Notes: generated by a model from the sequence alone, not told the origin. 64,000 nt of DNA from a virus (IMGVR_UViG_3300037424_000117:2529-66528); one strand, 5' to 3'. Shown: positions 9,157 through 62,600, numbered from the stretch's first letter. Made by a program: numbers and translations.

Positions 9157-9624
9157 TTACGCCCACGCGATCCAGTGTGCTTGCACGCTGGTTGCGATCA
9201 GCGCAGCCGGGATGCTGACGCCCGTGAACTTCTCACCCGCGAGGTTCAGACGCGAGTTGTCGGTAGCTTCGGAGGCTTCGGTAAGCGGCAGGCCAACGCT
9301 GGTTGTACCAACGACGCCCTTCGCTGTCTCGTACACAGTCCATGTGCTGACGGTGCCGGAATCGAAGTCTTTGATCATGCTCGGCATGCCGGATGTTTCG
9401 AGGGTCAGAGCGCCGTCATTGGCTGTCTTCCAGCCGTTGGCGTCAGCCATTCCGTCGAACACTTCGTACGAAATCTCGGTGCCGCTGGCGTCGATGATCT
9501 TGAAGTAGCGCGGCTTGAAGCCGAGGTTCAGGATGGACTTCTTCACGGTGCCGGTATCTTTGAACGAACCGGACGCGAAGTAGACCACCGGGATTGCGTT
9601 GTGGTTTGCTGAGGTAATAGCCAT
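9157..9624 (-). CDS. putative capsid decoration/minor capsid protein (155 aa)
   Basis: Immediately after the major capsid gene, strong RBS, Thr/Ser-rich. Confidence 0.5.
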   Translation of the reverse strand: MAITSANHNAIPVVYFASGSFKDTGTVKKSILNLGFKPRYFKIIDASGTEISYEVFDGMADANGWKTANDGALTLETSGMPSMIKDFDSGTVSTWTVYETAKGVVGTTSVGLPLTEASEATDNSRLNLAGEKFTGVSIPAALIATSVQAHWIAWA

Positions 9625-17072: not shown

Positions 17073-17641
17073 GTCTTTGTGCTGTCAAGCTGTTTACACG
17101 TTAGGCACTAACCCGGATAGCGCCCAAAATTTTGGGCAGTGCTCCTGTTCGACTGTCAAACGGTGTACATCCCCCTAAAATTGCCCGGTCGTATACGCGA
17201 TTTGGAGTACACGGCGGGAGGGGCGCGCAGGATTGCCCCCAAGCCCCCCGTCTGACAGTGAAAAAGGATGCTTATTTCACAGCGACACAGTCTGACTGTC
17301 TGACAGTGGCGCTGTCATACACCCGGCGCCCGTCATACAGCGGCAATGCGAGGCAATCACGCTGTTACACTGTCAGACGCCATAGCTAGTAACGATTTGG
17401 CGCTTGCTAGTAGCATTGCTAGGCCATGACGCCATGTCATACGCTGCACACCATGCACATGTAGTAGATAGTAGATAGATAGTAAGAATAGAAGAGAGAA
17501 ACAGGAGAGCTTCGCGTGAGAGAAAATCTGTGAGACTGTATGACAGCGGCGAGCAAATTTGCACGCGAAAAGATGCGATGCCCTCGTTTTTCCGCTGCCT
17601 TTCTTACTAGCAACGCATATCACAGCCTGACAGTCTGACAG
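17066..17641. repeat. cluster of 10 TGACAG/CTGTCA hexamers
   Basis: Copies at 17066, 17082, 17153, 17253, 17301, 17312, 17370, 17541, 17628, 17636 in a non-coding divergent region. Confidence 0.75.
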
Positions 17642-17695
17642 GGTGACGATCACGCCGCGCGCATCGCAGCAATGCAACTAGCAAGCGGCCTTTCG

Positions 17696-17724
17696 CTTAC
17701 TGTCCACGCTATGTGTGCTATAAT
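17696..17724 (+). promoter_or_regulatory. early promoter (extended -10)
   Basis: TGcTATAAT at 17716-17724, then RBS aggagg and ATG at 17755. Confidence 0.65.
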
Positions 17725-17754
17725 GAGCGCTTCACAATCACATAGGAGGATTAA

Positions 17755-18396
17755 ATGCCGCATAACGACGGTTCGCTCACGCAACAGGAGCAAATTGCAG
17801 CATGGCGAGCAGGTGGAAAGCAGGGTCCGCACCCGTGCCCGCCAGCGAAAACGCCTGAGCAGCGCAGGGTCCGCGCCGAGATTGACGCGCTACTGAAGCA
17901 GTTGAAGCGGGGCAAATACGCACCTCGTGTGCTGTCTGACAGCGAGATAGCCGACCGGGCCGAGGTCAAGCGCCTTCGTCGGGCCGCTGTCATACAGTCG
18001 GGCGTGCAACGGGTGCGCAGCGGTCCAACGAAGCAGCAGATAGCCGAGTCGTGGCTGGCGCGCGGGCGACCGGCTGATGAGCCCGTGCCCGACCTAGTCC
18101 AGCAGCAGCAAGCGGCCAAGGTGCGGTGGAATAACAAGCGACTCATCGAGGCCGCACTGCGCAAGCTGGAGCGCAGCACAGCGCCACAGGTGGCGGCGCA
18201 GGCACCGCTCCGGGGGCGTCCGGACCTACCGCTCGACAGTGTCGCAGGCGCGCGGCTGCAAGTCTGGTTTGCCGTCTGGGATGGGTGTGTGGTGCCGGCA
18301 GAGTTTGACGACGAGCCCGTGCGGTATGGCGTGGTGACGCGGGTGGATTGGCAGCGCGTGCCAGTGCTGGGTGTTGGGCGCTGGGGCAGCAAATAG
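17755..18396 (+). CDS. first early gene, basic hypothetical protein (213 aa)
   Basis: Strong RBS aggagg; Arg-rich. Confidence 0.65.
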   Translation: MPHNDGSLTQQEQIAAWRAGGKQGPHPCPPAKTPEQRRVRAEIDALLKQLKRGKYAPRVLSDSEIADRAEVKRLRRAAVIQSGVQRVRSGPTKQQIAESWLARGRPADEPVPDLVQQQQAAKVRWNNKRLIEAALRKLERSTAPQVAAQAPLRGRPDLPLDSVAGARLQVWFAVWDGCVVPAEFDDEPVRYGVVTRVDWQRVPVLGVGRWGSK

Positions 18397-18441: not shown

Positions 18442-18471
18442 TTGACAGGGTCCGGGGCGATCTGGTAGTGT
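18442..18471 (+). promoter_or_regulatory. early sigma70 promoter
   Basis: TTGACA-18-TAGTGT. Confidence 0.55.
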
Positions 18472-18533: not shown

Positions 18534-18929
18534 ATGAGCAAGAAGCACAAGTGGGAAAGAGAAGCGCCGAAGGATGCAGCAGCCGAGGCGCGAGTCACAC
18601 GGCGCGAATGGTTCGCGGAGCGGCGCGTTGTCTGGAATCTGATCAACGCGCTGATCGCTGAGGGTTGGGTGATTCCTGCGGTGGATGATGGCGAGGAAGT
18701 TGTGAAAGTGGACAACGATCCGACCGCAGCGCTTAATGCGGTGTTCGCTGTAGACGAGGCGCATATCATCGTGCGCAGCGCCAGCAATCAGCGTGCCGGG
18801 AATATTTTTATCGTGCTCGGCAATAGCGCGGAGGAAGTCGTTTGCGACTGGGGCTGGAAGGATAATGCAGTGGGCCAGAGGTTCGACAGGTTTGTCGAGT
18901 CGTTCGACGCTGAGCAGTACGCGCGATAG
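18534..18929 (+). CDS. early hypothetical protein (131 aa)
   Basis: RBS ggaggg; IFIVLGN..EEVVCDW motif. Confidence 0.75.
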   Translation: MSKKHKWEREAPKDAAAEARVTRREWFAERRVVWNLINALIAEGWVIPAVDDGEEVVKVDNDPTAALNAVFAVDEAHIIVRSASNQRAGNIFIVLGNSAEEVVCDWGWKDNAVGQRFDRFVESFDAEQYAR

Positions 18930-18996
18930 CACCCGGTGCGCACTGGCAACAGTGCGCACCGAGGGCGACTTGCCCGGCACACAGGAGCACAGCACC

Positions 18997-19170
18997 ATGA
19001 TTAGCGTTTATTCATCACAGGGGAAGCGATGGGGCAAAAAGCGCGTGCCCGATTGCGAGTGCAGCTACAATTTCACGTGCCGCACGTGCCTAGTCGCTGG
19101 GCTGCAAGAGGGCATGCCGCAGCGGCCACCGAAACAACTGACAGAGCAACCACACAGGGGGCAATCATGA
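18997..19170 (+). CDS. early Cys-rich small protein (57 aa)
   Basis: RBS aggag; CxC...CxxC. Confidence 0.6.
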   Translation: MISVYSSQGKRWGKKRVPDCECSYNFTCRTCLVAGLQEGMPQRPPKQLTEQPHRGQS

Positions 19171-19364
19171 GACGCAATCTAGCAAATCACGCAGGGGTCC
19201 ACCGCGCGAATTGGATGATTCAATTTGAAGGCCATGTGGGCATAGCAGATCGCAAGCTCGCGATCTACAAGCCGGGCGACTTCTGGGACAGCGCCACGCA
19301 CGCGTTCAACACCGGGAAGACTCCGGGCGACGCGGCCAAGGCGTACGTGGAGTCCCACAGTTAG
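19167..19364 (+). CDS. early hypothetical protein (65 aa)
   Basis: ATGA coupling with the previous gene. Confidence 0.65.
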   Translation: MRRNLANHAGVHRANWMIQFEGHVGIADRKLAIYKPGDFWDSATHAFNTGKTPGDAAKAYVESHS

Positions 19365-19367
19365 GGC

Positions 19368-19396
19368 TTGACACTGGAAACGGATTCGACTAGAGT
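19368..19396 (+). promoter_or_regulatory. early promoter with inverted repeat over the spacer and -10
   Basis: TTGACA-17-TAGAGT; arms 19376-19387 and 19393-19404. Confidence 0.8.
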
Positions 19397-19442
19397 CCGT
19401 TTCCGGGGCGACTTGCCCTCAACTGAACAGGAGCACAGCACC

Positions 19443-19574
19443 ATGAAAACCATCATCGTACAGCGCGTGATCAACGGGAAGCCCGCAGACATCAAGCTCA
19501 CGCTCGAAGACGCGTCACCCGAGAATGTCGCGCTGATCATCGAGCACATCCGCCGCATGGAGGGGGGCGAGTAA
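19443..19574 (+). CDS. early hypothetical protein (43 aa)
   Basis: RBS aggag, MKTIIVQRVING... Confidence 0.6.
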   Translation: MKTIIVQRVINGKPADIKLTLEDASPENVALIIEHIRRMEGGE

Positions 19575-19653
19575 GCCCGAGTCCTCTGCATGCGTCTGGG
19601 CGACCGGGCGCATGCGGGCCGACTTGGCCGACACTGACAGGAGCACAGCAATC

Positions 19654-20208
19654 ATGGCACACATCAACGGCTCAGGAATTCAGCAGCACAGCGACGGCGG
19701 GCATCTGCCCTACGTGGTGTACATGCTCGGGGAGTACACCGACCACGGCGCGCTGGTGAAAGAACGCATAATCGTATCGCTGGCCGGCGAGCCTCTGACC
19801 GAGGCCGCGACTTGGCGCGAGGGCCACGCACTGGCGCTCGAATTCAAACGCCGCGACGTGCGCGACAGCGTGACAGCGCGATTCATCCGGGCTGACTGGG
19901 CCGACGCTGTAGCGCACCTCGTGGATCACCCGGCGCTCATAGCGGACGCGCAGCGCGAACGCAACGACCACCTCATGATGTACGGCGACGCGAATCATGT
20001 GCCGCTGACCGGGCAGGACATGCTCGCGTGGAAGCGGGCCGAGGCTCGAAAGTTTGAAGAGACCGAAGCCGCCTATCAGGCGCGCGAAGCGGAGATGGCA
20101 GCGGCCCGAGAAGAGTTCTACGCTTCGGCAGAGGAACAAGGCAGCGAGGCGCTGGACGAGCTACGCGGGCGTGAACTTGCGCGCCGGGCTCTGGGCATCA
20201 TCGAGTAA
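19654..20208 (+). CDS. early hypothetical protein (184 aa)
   Basis: RBS aggag then MAHINGSG...; coiled-coil C-terminus. Confidence 0.7.
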   Translation: MAHINGSGIQQHSDGGHLPYVVYMLGEYTDHGALVKERIIVSLAGEPLTEAATWREGHALALEFKRRDVRDSVTARFIRADWADAVAHLVDHPALIADAQRERNDHLMMYGDANHVPLTGQDMLAWKRAEARKFEETEAAYQAREAEMAAAREEFYASAEEQGSEALDELRGRELARRALGIIE

Positions 20209-20281
20209 CGCGAATCGCACTACAGCCGCGTGACAGGCGGCTGAGTGGGCGACTTGCCCGAGTTGATAGGAGGTTAGCACC

Positions 20282-20602
20282 ATGAACTTGCAACTTGTAC
20301 CAGCCGCAGCCGTCACCGTGCGCATCAAGTGCGTGCGCTGTCACGGCACCAGCTTCGTGGGTAAGGGTGGGCACAAAGTGTACGCCGACCTTGACGGTGT
20401 GCCGTTCGTGGATTACTACTGCGAGCCGTGCCGCGCACACATTCTCGTTACCAGTGGCGGACGCGAGGGCATTTGCGCCGACGCGCTGCGCTACGGGCGG
20501 GAGCCGCTGAAGCTCGGCAGCACCATGATCGAGGTGCGCATTGGCGAGCGCTCGCCGCTGCTCACCCAGTCCTTCGAAACTTTCAACAGGGGGCAAGCAT
20601 GA
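20282..20602 (+). CDS. early Zn-binding hypothetical protein (106 aa)
   Basis: RBS aggagg; CxxC...CxxC. Confidence 0.7.
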   Translation: MNLQLVPAAAVTVRIKCVRCHGTSFVGKGGHKVYADLDGVPFVDYYCEPCRAHILVTSGGREGICADALRYGREPLKLGSTMIEVRIGERSPLLTQSFETFNRGQA

Positions 20603-20928
20603 AAGACTGGAGCGTGCACAAATCCGAGGTGCCGTTGTTTGCTATCAGCACATCGCACAAGTGCGGGTGGCGGGCGTTCTACGTGTCTGTCAGGGTGCAG
20701 ACCGCAGGCGCTAACGAGTGGCACCAGCGCCAAGTGTTTCATCTTGGCATTGACCCGACCGCATCGCGGCCCAGCATTTTTGGGGCCGTGCAGTGGCACA
20801 GGCGCGGCTTTAGTTGGCGCGTGCCAATCAAGCTGATTAGCTGGCGCATGGTCATGCGCTTCCCGTTCCTGCGCCGCCTGTACGTGTGGCAGGGGCACAT
20901 GCTGTTTAAACTAGACGGGAGGTTCTGA
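20599..20928 (+). CDS. early Trp/Arg-rich hypothetical protein
   Basis: ATGA coupling; MKDWSVHK... Confidence 0.55.
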   Translation: MKDWSVHKSEVPLFAISTSHKCGWRAFYVSVRVQTAGANEWHQRQVFHLGIDPTASRPSIFGAVQWHRRGFSWRVPIKLISWRMVMRFPFLRRLYVWQGHMLFKLDGRF

Positions 20929-20936
20929 CCGGGGGC

Positions 20937-20965
20937 TTGACACTGCCAGCGCATTCGTGCAGAGT
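20937..20965 (+). promoter_or_regulatory. early promoter with inverted repeat over the spacer and -10
   Basis: TTGACA-17-CAGAGT; arms gccagcgcattc/gagtgcgctggc. Confidence 0.75.
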
Positions 20966-21005
20966 GCGCTGGCGGGGCGACTTGCCCGAGTAGAAAGGGA
21001 CCAAC

Positions 21006-21161
21006 ATGAAACGCAGAGCACACAAGGCACTATTGGCACGCATCCCGGCGATTGATCCGGCGCTGTACTTCCTGCGGCCCGCATTCCCGCTGACTAACCC
21101 GGTGCCGCAGGACTTGCCGGTCCACGTCAGCGTGGCGAACATGCACAGGGGGCGAGCATGA
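21006..21161 (+). CDS. early hypothetical protein (51 aa)
   Basis: Own translation MKRRAHKALL...; RBS aaaggga; ATGA coupling to the next gene. Confidence 0.5.
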   Translation: MKRRAHKALLARIPAIDPALYFLRPAFPLTNPVPQDLPVHVSVANMHRGRA

Positions 21162-21391
21162 ACATTTACAACCACTTCGACTACACCACGCAGGGACGCA
21201 GGCCGACAGCGGCGCAGATAGTCGCAGCATGGCGCAACGCTGGCAGGCCCGCGCAATTCTCGGTGCAGTACGGCGAGACCGAGGCCGAGTTTAACTACGG
21301 CTGGCGCGGCTGGGATGACTCGGGCAACGGTTGCCGAGGTGTTGACCGGCTCGCTGTGATCAAGGCTCTCGCCGGGCAGTCGCCGGCATGA
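21158..21391 (+). CDS. early hypothetical protein (77 aa)
   Basis: Coupled ORF chain. Confidence 0.65.
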   Translation: MNIYNHFDYTTQGRRPTAAQIVAAWRNAGRPAQFSVQYGETEAEFNYGWRGWDDSGNGCRGVDRLAVIKALAGQSPA

Positions 21392-21591
21392 GTGGGCAGC
21401 GCATGAGCGCCGAGGCACTGGCGCAGATGGATCACGTTTTTTATGGTGCGCTTCAGGTGATCAATCGACACAAGAAACCGGGAGAGGTGCACCATCCTAT
21501 CCCGCTGCGGTACGTGACGCGGCCCGCTCACGTGCCGGAGGCAAGCAACGACGGGCTCAACGTAATCGAAGGGGGTCAACATGGCTCTTAG
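21388..21591 (+). CDS. early hypothetical protein (67 aa)
   Basis: Coupled ORF chain. Confidence 0.55.
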   Translation: MSGQRMSAEALAQMDHVFYGALQVINRHKKPGEVHHPIPLRYVTRPAHVPEASNDGLNVIEGGQHGS

Positions 21592-21802
21592 CGTTTGCAA
21601 CGGTTGGCACATCCGGCACAGCAGCACAGCGCCACCGACCGGGCAGTGGCGCGCCACCCGGCACGGCGTGAGCATGTGCGCGGGCTCATACCACGCACTG
21701 GTCAACATGATCCAAGAGCGAAGCGCAGAGGAACGCGCAAGGCGTGGGCCAGCATGGGATGGAATGGCACCGCGAGGTGTCATTAAAACTCATGGCGTTT
21801 AA
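21581..21802 (+). CDS. early hypothetical protein (73 aa)
   Basis: RBS gggg; overlapping chain. Confidence 0.5.
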   Translation: MALSVCNGWHIRHSSTAPPTGQWRATRHGVSMCAGSYHALVNMIQERSAEERARRGPAWDGMAPRGVIKTHGV

Positions 21803-22061
21803 ACGCCTCACAGCAGCACAGCGCCGCGCGCTGATGTACCTGCGGGCACTGGGCGAGATGTTGCCCAATCCGCAGGACGCCCGCTCGCTCAAGGTGCTCG
21901 CGAGGCGCGGGCTCGTGCGCTATCGCAAACGGGACGGCATCCGCTATGCCGTGTTGCGTGACGGGAACGCCGAGGCAGCGGAGAAGCGCAGACTAAAGCG
22001 CGCGACCCGGTACTTTGGCTGGACCGAATCAGGAGAAAGGGAACACCATGAAAGCGTATAG
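21792..22061 (+). CDS. early basic protein, winged-helix-like (MAFKRLTAAQRRAL...)
   Basis: LT..Q..AL...L..L..RGLV pattern. Confidence 0.55.
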   Translation: MAFKRLTAAQRRALMYLRALGEMLPNPQDARSLKVLARRGLVRYRKRDGIRYAVLRDGNAEAAEKRRLKRATRYFGWTESGEREHHESV

Positions 22062-22269
22062 AACGGTCAGGGGTGCCACTCAGTACAAGCCAGCGCTCGA
22101 AGACGTGGAGGCCGCGATCCACGGCGACGAGATGACGGGCTTTTGTCTTGCGTGCGGTGACTCACAGGGTGGTGTCGAGCCCGACGCCCGCAAGTACAAT
22201 TGCGAATCGTGCGGCGAGCCGAAAGTTTACGGCGCGGAGCAGTTGCTGCTGATGGGGCTCGTGCACTAA
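22048..22269 (+). CDS. early Zn-ribbon protein (73 aa)
   Basis: GFCLACG...VEPDA..YNCESCG...VYGAE. Confidence 0.75.
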   Translation: MKAYRTVRGATQYKPALEDVEAAIHGDEMTGFCLACGDSQGGVEPDARKYNCESCGEPKVYGAEQLLLMGLVH

Positions 22270-22275
22270 AAAGGC

Positions 22276-22304
22276 TTGACACTCGCAGCGCATTCGATTA
22301 GAGT
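22276..22304 (+). promoter_or_regulatory. early promoter with inverted repeat over the spacer and -10
   Basis: TTGACA-17-TAGAGT; arms cgcagcgcattc/gagtgcgctgcg. Confidence 0.8.
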
Positions 22305-22348
22305 GCGCTGCGGGGGCGACTTGCCCGATTACCTGACAGGGTGACAGC

Positions 22349-22555
22349 ATGGGAACGAGAACAGCAGCAGCAACTAACTTTCGGGTGCGCGACGCGCTCT
22401 TAATTGTTAGCGAGCTTATCGGTTGGGCTGATGACGACGCCGACCACGCAAGACGCAGCGATGCGCCGAACGTCGCGCTGGATGATGATAATCGCGCGGC
22501 GCACTTGCGCAAGGCGTACAGTCTGATCCTTGGCACCATCCGGAGCGAATCATGA
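22349..22555 (+). CDS. early hypothetical protein (68 aa)
   Basis: Follows a cassette; coupled to the next gene. Confidence 0.6.
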   Translation: MGTRTAAATNFRVRDALLIVSELIGWADDDADHARRSDAPNVALDDDNRAAHLRKAYSLILGTIRSES

Positions 22556-24475: not shown

Positions 24476-24609
24476 AACTCACCGGGTACGCAGCGTACGG
24501 CACGACGCGACGCAAGGCGTTGCGTGGGCTCTGGGCGTTCATCGAAGTGCTGGAAGTGGAGCACCTCTACACCAAGGCGTTTAAACGGCACTGCTTGACA
24601 GCGAAATAA
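24472..24609 (+). CDS. hypothetical protein (45 aa)
   Basis: ATGA coupling. Confidence 0.45.
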   Translation: MKLTGYAAYGTTRRKALRGLWAFIEVLEVEHLYTKAFKRHCLTAK

Positions 24610-24623
24610 GATCGGCGCATAGT
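24595..24623 (+). promoter_or_regulatory. sigma70 promoter
   Basis: TTGACA-17-CATAGT then RBS aggag and ATG 24645. Confidence 0.7.
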
Positions 24624-24644
24624 GCGCGACACACAGGAGAAATC

Positions 24645-30365: not shown

Positions 30366-30400
30366 AAGCGCCCCGGCTCATGAGGCTGGGGCGCTTGTTT
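30366..30400 (+). terminator. terminator/attenuator-like hairpin
   Basis: aagcgccccggc/gctggggcgctt stem then gttt; ATG of the next ORF lies in the loop. Confidence 0.55.
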
Positions 30401-59660: not shown

Positions 59661-62600
59661 TTATCTGTCAGTGCCGTAAAGCTGGGTTAGCGACTCCGAA
59701 CCGCCACGAAGTGCGCGTGGCAGGAGCAGCAAATTACGTTGGTTCAGTGGCAATCCGTTCAAAGCGATGGTACGACGCAGGGACGATCCGCTGATTGCCA
59801 TCGGCATCTCCGGGTTCGCGCGGTTCCACGCCCCGATGAATTCCACGGCTTCTTTCACGCGGTCAGCATTGCCGTCGCGAACGCCCCTGATAATATCGTT
59901 CGTAATTTCCTTCTGGGCTTCCTTGTAGAACGCGGACTGCGCTTTGTCGATGCGGTCAATCTCGTAGGCATTTGACAACGCGCTGCTGCTGAACCCGAGG
60001 GTCTGCGAGAACGATTCCCATGACGAGGCCGGCACGATCTTGCGACCGCCGATGTCAGATGCGTAGCCGTCTTGGAACGACTGCACACCCTTGATCAAGT
60101 TCTGCGCGGCCAGCGGCCCGCCGACTTTCATGGCTTCCACGAACTCGCCACGGCTCAGCGCGTCGATGCCGTTCAGCCAACCGGTGGCGATGGACCCACC
60201 CGGCCCGAGCACTTCGCTCATGACCTTCTTGTAATCTGCGTCCGCAGCGCCGATGCGCGTGCCCGGCAGAATGTTGCCCAGCCCAACGCGGCTCGCGAAG
60301 TTCAGGCCGGTGAGTTGGTTGGCAAAGCCGTGCATCATCACGCCGCTAAGGTCCACGCCAACAACGGTCTCGCTGGCCGACTTGAACATGTTGCGCATCG
60401 CGCGCTTCGAATTGAACGGCGAGCCGAATACGCGCTGGGCGATCGTGTCGATGATGTCTTCAATATCCTCAGCGAACGGCATGCCTTCCACGCCGGCCAC
60501 TGCGGTCAGGCTCAGCAGCATGATCACCGCCGCCTTCGGATTCGTCTTCGACAGGTGGATCATCGTCTCCAGCATGAACAGCGGATACGCCTTGAACGTG
60601 AACAGCAGCGCGCCCACCGGGCCACGCGCGAGAGCGGGACGGTTCGCTTCGTCGTACCGACCTTGCGTCAGGGCCACGGCCTGCTGCGCGAACTTGTACA
60701 GCTTATCGCCGGCCAGATTGTTTTCCTGTCCGATCTTGTAGGCGGCGATGAAGGTCGAGATGCGGTTCCACTGCTCCGTGATCCGGAACGGTGCCATCCA
60801 CACCTCAGCCGCCTTGCGCACGCCACGGCTCATCGACAGCGTGCGGGCGCGCGTCAGACCCATGATCTGGTAGATTTCCGTGTCGAGCGTCGTGCCATCC
60901 TGCACCGCCACTGTGAGCGCGGCGCGGAGGCCGGGCACGCTGTCCACGTCAGGGATCGCGTGGCTCAAGTCCTGCAACGTGTTGATGTCCGTCAACGCCA
61001 CGTGGTTCGTAGCCGCCACCTTCAGCGCGCCGAAGGTCTTGCTGAGCGCGTTCGTGTACCCCGTGAAAGCGGACAGGTACGGCGTTGTGTTCATCGCCAG
61101 CGAGCTTAGCTGTACCGCGCCAGCAGATAGCGAGCCACCGAGGAATTGGAGCGTCGCAGCGGCACGAAGCGTGCTGGAGATTTTGTTACCGGGGTTGGGT
61201 GAGGTAACGAAGTCGGTTGTGTTGTCGGCGAGGTTGCGGTAGAATCCGGAGAGTTCTCCGTCTTCGCGCCATGCGTTTGTTCCTTCATAGATGTTGATCT
61301 CCGGTTGTCCATCGACACCGAACTTGCTCTGCACCACGGTGCCCTTCAGCGAGTCCTGAATAGCGGCGCCGAACTCGCTGTACGCGATCTTGTTCGCCAT
61401 CGTCACGCCGAACTCGGCGAGGATACGCTCGCCGTCTTCGCTGAAGCCCGGTATGTTCTTGCGGCGGAAAATGCGGTTGCGGCGCACGGAGTCGGACGCG
61501 ATCATTGACTTCGCCAAGCGCTCGCGTTCGGCCTGCGTCAACTCGATGCCGTTGCGGCGGGCCATGTCGAGGAATTGCTGGAAGCTCACGCTGCCATCGT
61601 ACTCGGCCTTGTACTTGAAAGTGTATTCTGTCTTGATGTCAGGGAAGTCCTTGAGCACGGCGTTGAGCGCGGCTATGCGACGCTCTGCCTCGCCGCGATG
61701 CTCGTTCAATTCGTAGTTAAGTGTCAGGCGCTTGCCGTCAACCTCGATGTACGTGTGCACACCGTGGTCGCCGTAACGGCGCTCAGGGAAGTAGCCGTCG
61801 TTGATCAACTGCGCAACCTGAATCGCGCGGGCGCCCTCCCACTCGGCGTACTGCTTGCTGTCCAGCCCGAGCAGTTTCGAGAAGGTGCGCTTGTCCGCCT
61901 CGAACTCCGCGTTCAGGCGGTCGGCGATCATGTCAGTAGCCTGTTTAAACATCGCGCGTTCCTTGGCGTCCAGCTTCGTAATGATGCGCTGCATGTCGGC
62001 GGAGTCGAGCGCGTAGGCATTCACCGTGCGCTCCAACAAAGCACGCGTCGTATTCTCGAAGTTCGCTGTGGTAGCGCCCTTGCGCCACTCGCTCAGCTTG
62101 CCATCCACGCTATCCACGATCAGGCGGTCCTTGCGCTGATTGTAGGAAGTCAGCACGTCGAACACGTTCTTGTAGCCGGCAGACTTGCGCGAGAGCGCTA
62201 GACCGCTGGACACGTTCTCGTCATAGAAGGTCTTGAACGACGAGGTCGTGCCGTGTGCGTAACCTTTAATGGTGTTGCCCAACACGGCGCGCTGCATGTC
62301 TTCCGGAATCTCGGCGCTGTCGATGATCTTGCCAAGCACGCTGTGCATCTGCGTAAGCTGCGCTTCACCGCGCTTGGCTTCGGTGATCAGATCGGCGAGC
62401 GCGGCGCGGCTGTAGAACCGCAGCGTGCCTTGATCTGGCTCCACGTCCGTGCGCACGATGTCGCCGTCGATCGGCTCATCGCTCATGTCAACGGCTGCGT
62501 GCGCCGGGATTTTTCCGTCGCGCACGTACTCGCGGATCGCGATGCCGTAGTTGTAGCGAGCCTTCTCGTATTCAACTGGGTCGAGCGGAACCGACAACGC

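What the first reader, a model, noticed from the sequence alone, without database searches (positions are those of the whole stretch)
18934..22326. Six-copy early-gene leader cassette with covarying RNA hairpins
Seen: each unit is an 11-15 bp stem, then GGGC-GACTT-GCCC, then 10-20 nt, an RBS and ATG. The long stems differ in sequence but keep pairing, use G.U pairs and GNRA loops (GCAA at 18946, GCGA near 19600). The copy at 19617 has a compensatory double change (GGCC-GACTT-GGCC), so structure with an invariant GACUU loop is under selection. Established analogues: T7 early RNase III sites, T4-type PeSL cassettes, lambda boxB. Inference: a protein-binding, processing or antitermination RNA module that also allows gene shuffling by recombination; I do not recognise the GACUU-loop motif.
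Basis: partly seen in the sequence, partly recalled or inferred. Interest (0 to 1): 0.7.

Follow-up and report, generated by a model that had tools for sequence, protein, structure and literature searches.

The report
Phage early-gene promoter/hairpin boundary cassettes
Six repeated intergenic cassettes in the early region of an uncultured podophage each combine a variable stable RNA hairpin, an invariant 13-nt mini-hairpin and a ribosome-binding leader; three also carry a host-type promoter, so they resemble the promoter/stem-loop (PeSL) cassettes of T4-like phages with an extra conserved part.

Summary
There are exactly six NNNN-GACTT-NNNN mini-hairpins, all on the + strand and all intergenic, within 3.4 kb. 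Each lies 0-2 nt after a strong hairpin and 18-24 nt before a start codon.

In these the long stem spans the spacer and the -10 box, and the predicted start site falls at the junction with the mini-hairpin.

Related metagenomic phages carry the same cassettes:
- L137, L139, L175 and L138 (down to 46% protein identity) keep the same 13-mer, while the long stems differ in sequence but still pair. In the promoter-type units 7 of 14 stem pairs change on both sides and 100% of cells pair.
- More distant relatives have clade-specific mini-hairpins: GACGT in L006 and GGCAG-ACC-CTGCC in L005.
- Homology breakpoints between relatives fall in the cassettes, which fits gene shuffling.

Best reading (about 0.45): these are PeSL-like mRNA boundary cassettes. 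The upstream hairpin closes or attenuates the preceding transcript. The junction is the 5' end of the next mRNA, made by initiation or by processing. The mini-hairpin protects that 5' end.

Main rival (0.25): the mini-hairpin is an operator for an unknown phage protein.

Rfam gave no match; RNase III-site and boxB anatomy are not met; no phage RNA polymerase was detected. I rate it a new variant of a known kind.

The parts
18934..18961 (+). Unit 1 long hairpin, 12 bp, GCAA loop; no promoter
18963..18975 (+). Unit 1 mini-hairpin GGGC-GACTT-GCCC; leader with AGGAG; ATG at 18997
19368..19396 (+). Unit 2 sigma70-type promoter TTGACA-N17-TAGAGT
19374..19406 (+). Unit 2 long hairpin, 14 bp with 2 G.U, loop GACUA. 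It spans the promoter spacer and the -10 box
19406..19418 (+). Unit 2 mini-hairpin; ATG at 19443
19585..19618 (+). Unit 3 long hairpin, 13-15 bp with G.U pairs, GCGA loop; no promoter
19617..19629 (+). Unit 3 mini-hairpin, compensated variant GGCC-GACTT-GGCC; ATG at 19654
20219..20246 (+). Unit 4 long hairpin, 7-bp core plus 3 bp after a bulge, loop GUGACAG; no promoter
20247..20259 (+). Unit 4 mini-hairpin; ATG at 20282
20937..20965 (+). Unit 5 sigma70-type promoter TTGACA-N17-CAGAGT
20943..20975 (+). Unit 5 long hairpin, 14 bp, loop GUGCA, spanning the spacer and the -10 box
20975..20987 (+). Unit 5 mini-hairpin; ATG at 21006
22276..22304 (+). Unit 6 sigma70-type promoter TTGACA-N17-TAGAGT
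22282..22314 (+). Unit 6 long hairpin, 14 bp, loop GAUUA, spanning the spacer and the -10 box
22314..22326 (+). Unit 6 mini-hairpin; ATG at 22349
17697..17724 (+). First early promoter TTACTG-N16-(TGc)TATAAT in front of gene 17755-18396. It has no cassette and is conserved in L137, L139 and L138
   Evidence: read from the sequence
18442..18471 (+). Promoter-like TTGACA-N18-TAGTGT in front of gene 18534-18929; no mini-hairpin
24595..24623 (+). Promoter-like TTGACA-N17-CATAGT with the small inverted repeat GCGCA-TAG-TGCGC over the -10 box and a cassette-type leader, but no mini-hairpin

Best explanation
The six units are composite mRNA-boundary cassettes of the early, ORFan-rich region of a podophage transcribed by the host sigma70 RNA polymerase. 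They are analogous to the PeSL (promoter-early stem-loop) cassettes of T4-like phages.

Each unit has three parts:
1. A stable hairpin of free sequence, formed in the sense RNA of any transcript arriving from upstream. It closes that transcript, acting as an attenuator and/or a 3'-end protecting structure, and possibly as a site for a double-strand-specific nuclease.
2. A junction of 0-2 nt, which is the 5' end of the downstream mRNA. In units 2, 5 and 6 this end is made by initiation, because the -10 box sits at the top of the 3' arm and +1 falls at the foot of the stem. In units 1, 3 and 4 it is inferred to be made by endonucleolytic processing.
3. The invariant mini-hairpin GGGC-GACUU-GCCC. 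It forms the 5' terminus of that mRNA, protecting it from 5'-end-dependent decay and insulating the standard SD leader that follows.

Because the mini-hairpin and leader are repeated nearly identically, the cassettes also act as crossover points that move ORFan genes between related phages.

Shown: the anatomy, the sense-strand RNA folding, the covariation, the promoter consensus, conservation in relatives, and breakpoints at the cassettes. Inferred: the start sites, processing, stabilisation and attenuation.
For: - Exactly six copies, all intergenic and on the sense strand.
- Folds have z -3.8 to -6.4 and are better on the sense strand.
- Three units have TTGACA-N17-(T/C)AGAGT, with the stem between the -35 box and just past the -10 box.
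- The -10 box lies 8-9 nt before the mini-hairpin in every promoter-type unit, including L138. A start site about 7 nt after the -10 box therefore falls at the junction.
- The linker from long stem to mini-hairpin is 0-2 nt in about 20 cassettes, while the distance to the SD varies from 4 to 12 nt.
- In the promoter-type alignment 100% of cells pair and 7 of 14 stem pairs change on both sides. None of 500 shuffles reaches this, and slid controls pair at 29-48%.
- Cassettes at matching positions keep pairing through compensatory changes: CAGCCGC/GCGGCTG here, GAGCCCG/CGGGCTC in L138, CTTGCCGC/GCGGCAAG in L139.
- Genes behind the cassettes have no Pfam or PHROG function.
- Breakpoints between relatives lie at 19000/19166, 20272, 22280 and 22364. 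Gene 18997-19170 is missing from L137 and L175 exactly at the leader.
- The PeSL description matches: a sigma70 promoter, a stem-loop containing G.T pairs placed between -35 and -10 or over the -10 box, then SD and ATG, flanking ORFans and mediating recombination (PMC2839356).
Against: - No RNA ends have been mapped. The start sites and the processing in the promoterless units are predictions.
- A pure stabiliser would not need a fixed sequence. The 13-mer is identical in about 20 cassettes of five genomes and changes only between clades. This needs either gene conversion or a sequence-specific partner.
- The long stems are followed by G-rich sequence, not a U tract. The genome's other strong hairpins (30366, 45413, 51475) have pyrimidine-rich tails, so efficient intrinsic termination is doubtful.
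- Three other early promoters (17697, 18442, 24595) work without a mini-hairpin.
Confidence: 0.45

Rival explanations
1. The mini-hairpin is an RNA operator for a phage-encoded (or host) protein that recognises the GAC of the loop and the G-C stem. It would control a six-member immediate-early regulon. The control could be processive antitermination of the nut/boxB type, with the long hairpins as barriers, or translational repression or activation next to the SD.
For: - The sequence, not only the structure, is invariant within a genome and across relatives at 46-85% protein identity, while the adjacent long stems drift freely.
- The versions are clade-specific (GACUU, GACGU, GACCC) and share GAC, as expected for co-evolution with a partner.
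- The position 4-12 nt before the SD is compatible with blocking the 30S subunit.
- The first early gene (17755-18396) has its own promoter without a cassette. It encodes a conserved Arg/Lys-rich protein.
Against: - No boxA-like element is conserved near the hairpin (read).
- A loop ending in U cannot adopt the GNRA-like boxB fold (established knowledge, not tested here).
- Six copies directly in front of SD sequences is unlike nut sites.
- The long stems lack U tracts.
- No RNA-binding or antiterminator family was found in any early protein.
- The strict 0-2 nt adjacency to the long stem, and the start site at the junction, are not explained.
Confidence: 0.25
2. The mini-hairpin and leader have no RNA function of their own. 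They are the homogenised crossover segment of recombining cassettes and are kept identical by gene conversion. Only the promoter, the SD and the long hairpin are functional.
For: - Breakpoints between relatives fall in the mini-hairpin and leader segment.
- The leaders are also near-identical, for example ACAGGAGCACAGCA three times.
- Within-genome identity combined with differences between clades is the signature of concerted evolution.
Against: - The variant GGCC...GGCC is changed on both sides and persists in four related phages as well as here. The L005 version is another paired stem. Pairing is therefore maintained.
- The same 13-mer survives in L138, where homologous DNA is only about 69-82% identical.
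- The fixed 0-2 nt spacing to the long stem is not needed for recombination.
Confidence: 0.12
3. The feature acts on DNA. The inverted repeat over the -10 box, or a hairpin of the non-template strand, modulates open-complex formation at the three promoters. Alternatively the GGGC-N5-GCCC palindrome at +1 is an operator for a dimeric repressor that shuts off early transcription.
For: - The stem covers the spacer and the -10 box, and ATTC in the spacer is conserved opposite GAGT of the -10 box.
- The palindrome sits at about +3 to +16 of the three promoters.
- A small repeat also covers the -10 box at 24614-24626.
Against: - Three of the six units have no promoter.
- G.T pairs make the opposite strand much weaker, with a 9-bp stem and an 11-nt loop. 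This argues against cruciforms.
- A symmetric change of both half-sites (GGCC/GGCC) preserves pairing, not protein contacts.
Confidence: 0.07
4. The hairpins are promoters of a phage-encoded, virion-delivered RNA polymerase that recognises DNA hairpins, as in coliphage N4.
For: - Read with a G.T closing pair, the mini-hairpin has a 5-bp stem and a 3-nt loop. This is the size class of the inverted-repeat hairpin promoters of N4 (PMC4496689; the 5-7 bp stem and 3-nt loop figures are recalled from the N4 literature).
- The phage encodes a 2447-aa virion protein of unknown function.
Against: - No T7-like RNA polymerase domain was found in the genome, although the control genomes did not ring either.
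- Neither half of the giant protein has a PDB sequence match. Its C-terminus is the PLxRFG type of F116/H66-like phages.
- On the template strand the closing pair would be an A.C mismatch.
- Consensus sigma70 promoters already drive the region.
Confidence: 0.04

Closest known systems
PeSL (promoter-early stem-loop) cassettes of T4-like phages RB49/phi1, PST and nt-1 (Arbiol et al. 2010, PMC2839356; Comeau et al. 2014, PMC4122927)
   Same: - A sigma70-type early promoter.
- A stable stem-loop with G.T pairs placed between -35 and -10 or over the -10 box.
- SD and ATG at the 3' end.
- Many copies in intergenic regions flanking ORFans.
- Indels and replacements between related phages end in the cassettes.
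   Different: - An unrelated phage (a podophage with a PLxRFG giant protein) and unrelated sequence.
- No AT-rich region upstream of -35.
- No U-rich sequence after the stem.
- Half of the units have no promoter.
- There is an extra invariant 13-nt mini-hairpin at the predicted +1, which PeSLs are not described to have.
RNase III processing sites of the phage T7 early region (R0.3 to R1.3)
   Same: They are intercistronic hairpins in early polycistronic transcripts made by the host polymerase. The proposed outcome is the same: a 3' hairpin on the upstream mRNA and a defined 5' end on the downstream mRNA.
   Different: The T7 sites are two stems around an internal loop. Here there is one continuous 12-15 bp stem followed by a separate 4-bp hairpin. 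An enclosing lower helix was tested and not supported. Cleavage is untested.
Lambda/P22 nut sites (boxA + boxB bound by N)
   Same: Both have a short G-C stem with a pentaloop starting GA. From memory, the P22 boxB loop is GACAA. The element lies in early transcripts just after promoters, and the first early protein is arginine-rich.
   Different: - No boxA.
- The loop ends in UU, so no GNRA-like fold is expected.
- Six copies, each immediately before an SD.
- No homology to N.
- The barriers lack U tracts.
5'-terminal stabilising stem-loops (ompA 5' UTR hairpin, T7 phi10 leader)
   Same: A small hairpin lies within a few nucleotides of the predicted 5' end and is followed by an unstructured SD leader.
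   Different: Those hairpins are single cases without sequence conservation across genes. Here one 13-mer is reused six times and conserved between phages. The 5' end itself is only predicted.
Hairpin promoters of the coliphage N4 virion RNA polymerase (PMC4496689)
   Same: Small G+C-rich inverted repeats are repeated upstream of early genes, and the phage has a giant virion protein.
   Different: No polymerase was detected. The hairpin is better on the non-template strand, and sigma70 promoters are present.

Membership tests
PeSL cassettes (T4-like phages) | sigma70-like early promoter inside the repeat | tested here: inconclusive
   Met in 3 of 6 units (TTGACA-N17-TAGAGT/CAGAGT). Units 1, 3 and 4 have no -35/-10 match.
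PeSL cassettes (T4-like phages) | Stable stem-loop with G.T pairs between -35 and -10 or overlapping the -10 box | tested here: met
   A 14-bp stem runs from just after -35 to 9 nt past the -10 box, with 2 G.U pairs.
PeSL cassettes (T4-like phages) | SD and start codon at the 3' end; intergenic; flanking ORFans | tested here: met
   AGGAG or AGGG and an ATG lie 18-24 nt after the mini-hairpin. The downstream genes have no Pfam or PHROG function.
PeSL cassettes (T4-like phages) | Recombination between copies produces indels and replacements between related phages | tested here: met
   Breakpoints lie at 19000/19166, 20272, 22280 and 22364. A gene is present or absent at the leader. The GGCC cassette sits before a different gene in L138. 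Mini-circles were not tested.
PeSL cassettes (T4-like phages) | AT-rich region upstream of -35; homologous sequence in T4-like myoviruses | tested here: not met
   The upstream sequence is G+C-rich (gttaGGGC, accgGGGGC). The phage is a distant relative of phage Rollin and of HMO-2011- and phiM6-type podophages. It is therefore an analogue, not a member.
PeSL cassettes (T4-like phages) | Stem-loop acts as a terminator or attenuator | not testable with these tools
   There is no U tract after the stems, unlike the hairpins at 30366, 45413 and 51475. A reporter assay is needed.
T7-type RNase III sites | About 20 bp of helix as upper and lower stems around an internal loop | tested here: not met
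   The MFE is a continuous 12-15 bp stem plus a separate hairpin. Pairing of the 5' flank with GACUUGC gives z -1.8 to +0.9 against shuffles.
T7-type RNase III sites | Cleavage by RNase III | not testable with these tools
   This needs end mapping in wild-type versus rnc hosts, or an in vitro cleavage assay.
Lambda-type nut site | boxA (CGCUCUUA-like) near the hairpin | tested here: not met
   No such conserved element appears in about 25 aligned cassettes.
Lambda-type nut site | boxB pentaloop able to form a GNRA-like fold | tested here: not met
   The loops are GACUU, GACGU and GACCC. The last base is a pyrimidine. The fold rule comes from established knowledge.
Lambda-type nut site | N-family antiterminator encoded nearby | tested here: inconclusive
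   No family hit was found for any early protein. The product of 17755-18396 is Arg-rich but an ORFan, with only 4 clusters in 5.8 billion proteins and no Atlas lead.
N4-type hairpin promoters | Virion RNA polymerase | tested here: not met
   PF00940 gave no match, though the control genomes did not ring either. There are no PDB matches. The C-terminus is the PLxRFG type. No comparison by fold was made.
5'-terminal stabiliser hairpin | Hairpin within about 0-4 nt of the mRNA 5' end | not testable with these tools
   This is predicted only. The -10 box ends 8-9 nt before the hairpin in all promoter-type units.
Rfam families | Match to any curated RNA family | tested here: not met
   The only hit is a chance-level one, on the opposite strand (E 0.28, 24.5 bits against a 45-bit threshold).

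The most novel reading that the evidence does not exclude
The GGGC-GACUU-GCCC mini-hairpin is a dedicated RNA operator. An unknown phage early protein, for example the Arg-rich product of 17755-18396, would recognise it and co-evolve with it (GACUU, GACGU and GACCC in different clades). The protein would switch a whole set of host-takeover genes on or off after transcription. That would be a new phage RNA-protein regulon built into mobile promoter/hairpin cassettes.
Probability: 0.25. Interest if true: 0.7.

Novelty: new variant of a known kind. Interest (0 to 1): 0.5.

Why it matters
Composite promoter/stem-loop cassettes that both regulate ORFan early genes and shuffle them have so far been described for T4-like myoviruses. 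An independent, sequence-unrelated version in a soil podophage clade suggests this is a convergent, general design of phage host-takeover regions.

The invariant mini-hairpin at the mRNA boundary is an added part whose role can be tested directly, whether it is 5'-end protection, a processing signal or a protein operator. Natural sets of such parts are also useful as compact, insulated expression cassettes. The natural covariation set of about 14 different long stems and 4 mini-hairpin versions is a ready-made mutational series.

Tried and rejected
- **Rfam scan of 17-25 kb.** Only one sub-threshold chance hit, on the opposite strand.
- **Enclosing helix.** MFE folds of longer pieces suggested that the 5' flank pairs with GACUUGC. 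Against shuffled flanks the duplex energies were not significant (z -1.8 to +0.9). I dropped it, and with it the T7-like two-stem model.
- **N4-like hairpin-promoter idea.** No polymerase domain or PDB match was found, and the giant protein is the PLxRFG type.
- **Search for a trans-acting factor.** No Pfam or PHROG function turned up for 25 early or middle proteins. The ESM Atlas search of the first early protein (17755-18396) gave no lead.
- **Isolated phages.** megablast against 50,697 phage records found nothing. The closest isolate, Pseudomonas phage Rollin (39% portal identity), lacks the motif.
- **IMG/VR scans.** The promoter+motif pattern found nothing. The 15-mer gave only single chance hits, apart from L057, which has two copies in the reverse orientation and is unexplained. 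The 17-mer gave only L006 itself.
- **Genome-contig scan with a 17-mer.** 120 single chance hits in unrelated G+C-rich taxa, and no prophage or host clue.
- **Metagenome scan with the unit 3 19-mer.** Of 57 hits, only L175 and L187 (the same contig as L139) are real relatives.
- **Canonical intrinsic terminators.** Rejected for the long stems because their tails are G-rich.

Full report
**Context**

The window is 64 kb of a 66.5-kb IMG/VR viral contig whose ends overlap by 127 nt, so the assembly is circular. Genes for portal, large terminase, major head protein, DNA polymerase, helicase and primase identify a tailed phage. It is only distantly related to Pseudomonas phage Rollin (39% portal identity) and to HMO-2011-, phiM6- and CHOED-type podophages.

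A 2447-aa virion protein wraps the contig ends, and its C-terminus is of the PLxRFG type. Structural genes run leftwards from about 17.1 kb. From about 17.7 kb a rightward block of small genes without known function begins. The finding lies in that block.

**Check of the observation**

- GGGCGACTTGCCC is present five times and GGCCGACTTGGCC once, at the stated places.
- Of 147 GACTT pentamers in the genome, only these six are closed by four or more pairs. All six are intergenic and on the sense strand.
- Each unit folds into a long hairpin directly followed by the mini-hairpin, with z-scores of -3.8 to -6.4.
- The complementary strand folds less well in five of six units, by up to 11 kcal/mol. 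The stems contain G.U pairs and, in three units, four extra pairs that exist only in the sense strand. The folded species is therefore sense RNA.
- Unit 4 has a shorter stem than the finding states: 7 bp, or 10 with a bulge.

Units 2, 5 and 6 start with GGCTTGACACT and contain TAGAGT or CAGAGT 17 nt after TTGACA.

- The 5' arm of the long stem is the promoter spacer.
- The loop and the top of the 3' arm are the -10 box.
- The 3' arm ends 8-9 nt after the -10 box, where the mini-hairpin begins.
- A start site about 7 nt after the -10 box therefore falls at the junction. This is an inference from the usual spacing.

In these units the long stem belongs to transcripts coming from upstream, not to the mRNA of the gene that follows. 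That mRNA would begin with the mini-hairpin.

Units 1, 3 and 4 have no promoter match. Other promoter-like sites in the region lack the mini-hairpin: 17697 (with an extended -10), 18442 and 24595.

**Relatives**

Searches with two early proteins, and a metagenome scan with the unit 3 19-mer, recovered four related contigs:
- L137 and L175: about 85-90% identical to the window over the shared early region.
- L139: 83% identity in the first early protein, 86-97% DNA identity.
- L138: 46-68% protein identity, about 69-82% DNA identity where alignable.

All carry the cassettes. The 13-mer is identical in every copy, and each genome has one GGCC...GGCC copy. The long stems are different sequences that still pair:
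- The unit 4 position has CAGCCGC/GCGGCTG here, CTTGCCGC/GCGGCAAG in L139 and GAGCCCG/CGGGCTC in L138.
- The promoter-type unit of L138 has CGTGAAGTGCA/TGCACTTCGCG around the same loop, TTCGACTAGAG.

On the alignment of six promoter-type units, all cells pair and 7 of 14 stem pairs change on both sides. No shuffle of 500 reaches this, and slid controls pair at 29-48%.

Two more distant phages were found through their terminase (58% and 66% identity). They have the same two-hairpin architecture before SD sequences with other mini-hairpins:
- L006: GGGC-GACGT-GCCC, three copies, with the promoters placed separately.
- L005: GGCAG-ACC-CTGCC.

GAC in the loop is shared by all versions except one L005 copy (AAC). 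The mini-hairpin is thus conserved in sequence within a clade and compensated between variants. The long hairpin is conserved only in structure.

**Shuffling**

Homology between the window and its relatives breaks at or next to the cassettes: at 19000/19166 (unit 1 leader), 20272 (unit 4 leader), 22280 (unit 6 -35 box) and 22364.
- Gene 18997-19170 is absent from L137 and L175, where the unit 1 leader joins the next gene directly.
- L139 has another cassette and another gene at that place.
- In L138 the GGCC cassette precedes the orthologue of gene 19443-19574 instead of the orthologue of 19654-20208.

**Comparison with known systems**

The PeSL cassettes of RB49/phi1 are described as sigma70-like promoters combined with stem-loops containing G.T pairs. 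The stem-loop is most often between -35 and -10 or over the -10 box, followed by SD and ATG. They flank ORFans, act as promoters and as terminators in reporter assays, and recombine with each other (PMC2839356; PMC4122927).

The promoter-type units fit this anatomy and behaviour, but they are analogues, not homologues. The phage and the sequence are unrelated, and there is no AT-rich upstream region. The promoterless units and the invariant mini-hairpin are additions.

The other comparisons fail on defining features:
- T7 RNase III sites need two stems around an internal loop. The enclosing helix suggested by some MFE folds is not better than shuffled flanks.
- nut sites need boxA and a GNRA-like pentaloop, and neither is present.
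- N4-type hairpin promoters need a virion polymerase, and none was detected.
- Rfam has nothing.
- The stems are followed by G-rich sequence, whereas the strong hairpins at operon ends have pyrimidine-rich tails. They are therefore not canonical intrinsic terminators.

**Mechanism**

Three constraints point to a boundary between two mRNAs:
- The two hairpins are always 0-2 nt apart.
- The predicted start site of the promoter-type units falls in that gap.
- The distance to the SD is looser, at 4-12 nt.

The upstream hairpin would end or protect the preceding transcript. The junction would be the new 5' end, made by initiation or by cleavage. The mini-hairpin would then be a 5'-terminal structure of the kind known to protect mRNAs from 5'-end-dependent decay (established knowledge for ompA and T7 leaders). 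I give this reading 0.45.

It does not by itself explain why the 13-mer is fixed in sequence. Two explanations remain:
- Gene conversion between recombining cassettes, for which there is indirect evidence.
- A sequence-specific partner. This is the main rival (0.25) and the most novel reading. The Arg-rich, conserved product of the first early gene is a candidate without any supporting homology.

DNA-level models and a phage polymerase promoter are unlikely, for the reasons given under the rival explanations.

**Verdict**

The feature is real, well supported and under selection. It is best described as a PeSL-like cassette family in a new phage clade, with an added conserved mini-hairpin of unproven function. 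That makes it a new variant of a known kind, of moderate interest.

Noticed in passing
window 17089-17754: A 666-nt non-coding divergent control region lies between the structural (leftward) and early (rightward) genes. It holds repeated GTCTGACAG / CTGTCTGACAG elements (17248-17304, 17617-17647, and again at 17932 inside the first gene) and a tagtagatagtagatagatag low-complexity run at about 17461-17485. The repeats are conserved in L137 and L138. It may be an origin or a regulator-binding array.
   Followed up: no
window 19154-19171, 20586-20603, 21145-21162: A second, shorter leader family, ACAGGGGGC(A/G)A(T/G)CATGA, is used for internal, translationally coupled genes (ATGA stop/start overlaps). 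It has no hairpins.
   Followed up: no
window 24595-24626: Promoter-like TTGACA-N17-CATAGT with a 5-bp/3-nt inverted repeat (GCGCA-TAG-TGCGC) over the -10 box and a cassette-type leader (ACACAGGAGAAATCATG), but no GACTT mini-hairpin. GTTTAAAC lies just upstream at 24580-24587.
   Followed up: partly
window 17755-18396: The first early protein (213 aa) is Arg/Lys-rich and has an internal repeat (QxIAxWxAxG[KR]xxxxPxP, twice). Only four clusters exist among 5.8 billion proteins, all from the same phage clade.
   Followed up: partly
window 59664-64000 joined to 1-603 across the contig ends: A single 2447-aa open frame wraps the circular assembly. Its C-terminal 700 aa match PLxRFG-type giant virion proteins of F116/H66-like Pseudomonas phages at 27-28% identity. 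No PDB or polymerase match was found.
   Followed up: partly
L057 (IMGVR_UViG_3300042691_025899), reverse-strand positions 9306 and 11056: An unrelated viral contig carries the same 13-mer twice, in the opposite orientation relative to the genes (GGGCAAGTCGCCC, then a hairpin, then SD and ATG), within a conserved context. This is either chance or an independent use of the palindrome-like motif.
   Followed up: no
L006 reverse-complement 12677, 14117, 15786; L005 reverse-complement 7807, 8942: More distant relatives have the same architecture of long hairpin, mini-hairpin and SD, with the mini-hairpins GGGCGACGTGCCC (followed by GGAT) and GGCA(G/A)ACCCTGCC (followed by GATAACCGACAC). In L006 the TTGACA promoters are separate from the cassettes.
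   Followed up: partly
L139 1664-1694 and 4810-4850: GTTTAAAC/TTTAAAC, the palindrome that another note reports as over-represented in this genome, also sits in the cassette-replacement junctions of the relative L139. One copy is inside a promoter spacer (TTGACT-cgcgatttaaacgcgcg-TAAAGT).
   Followed up: no
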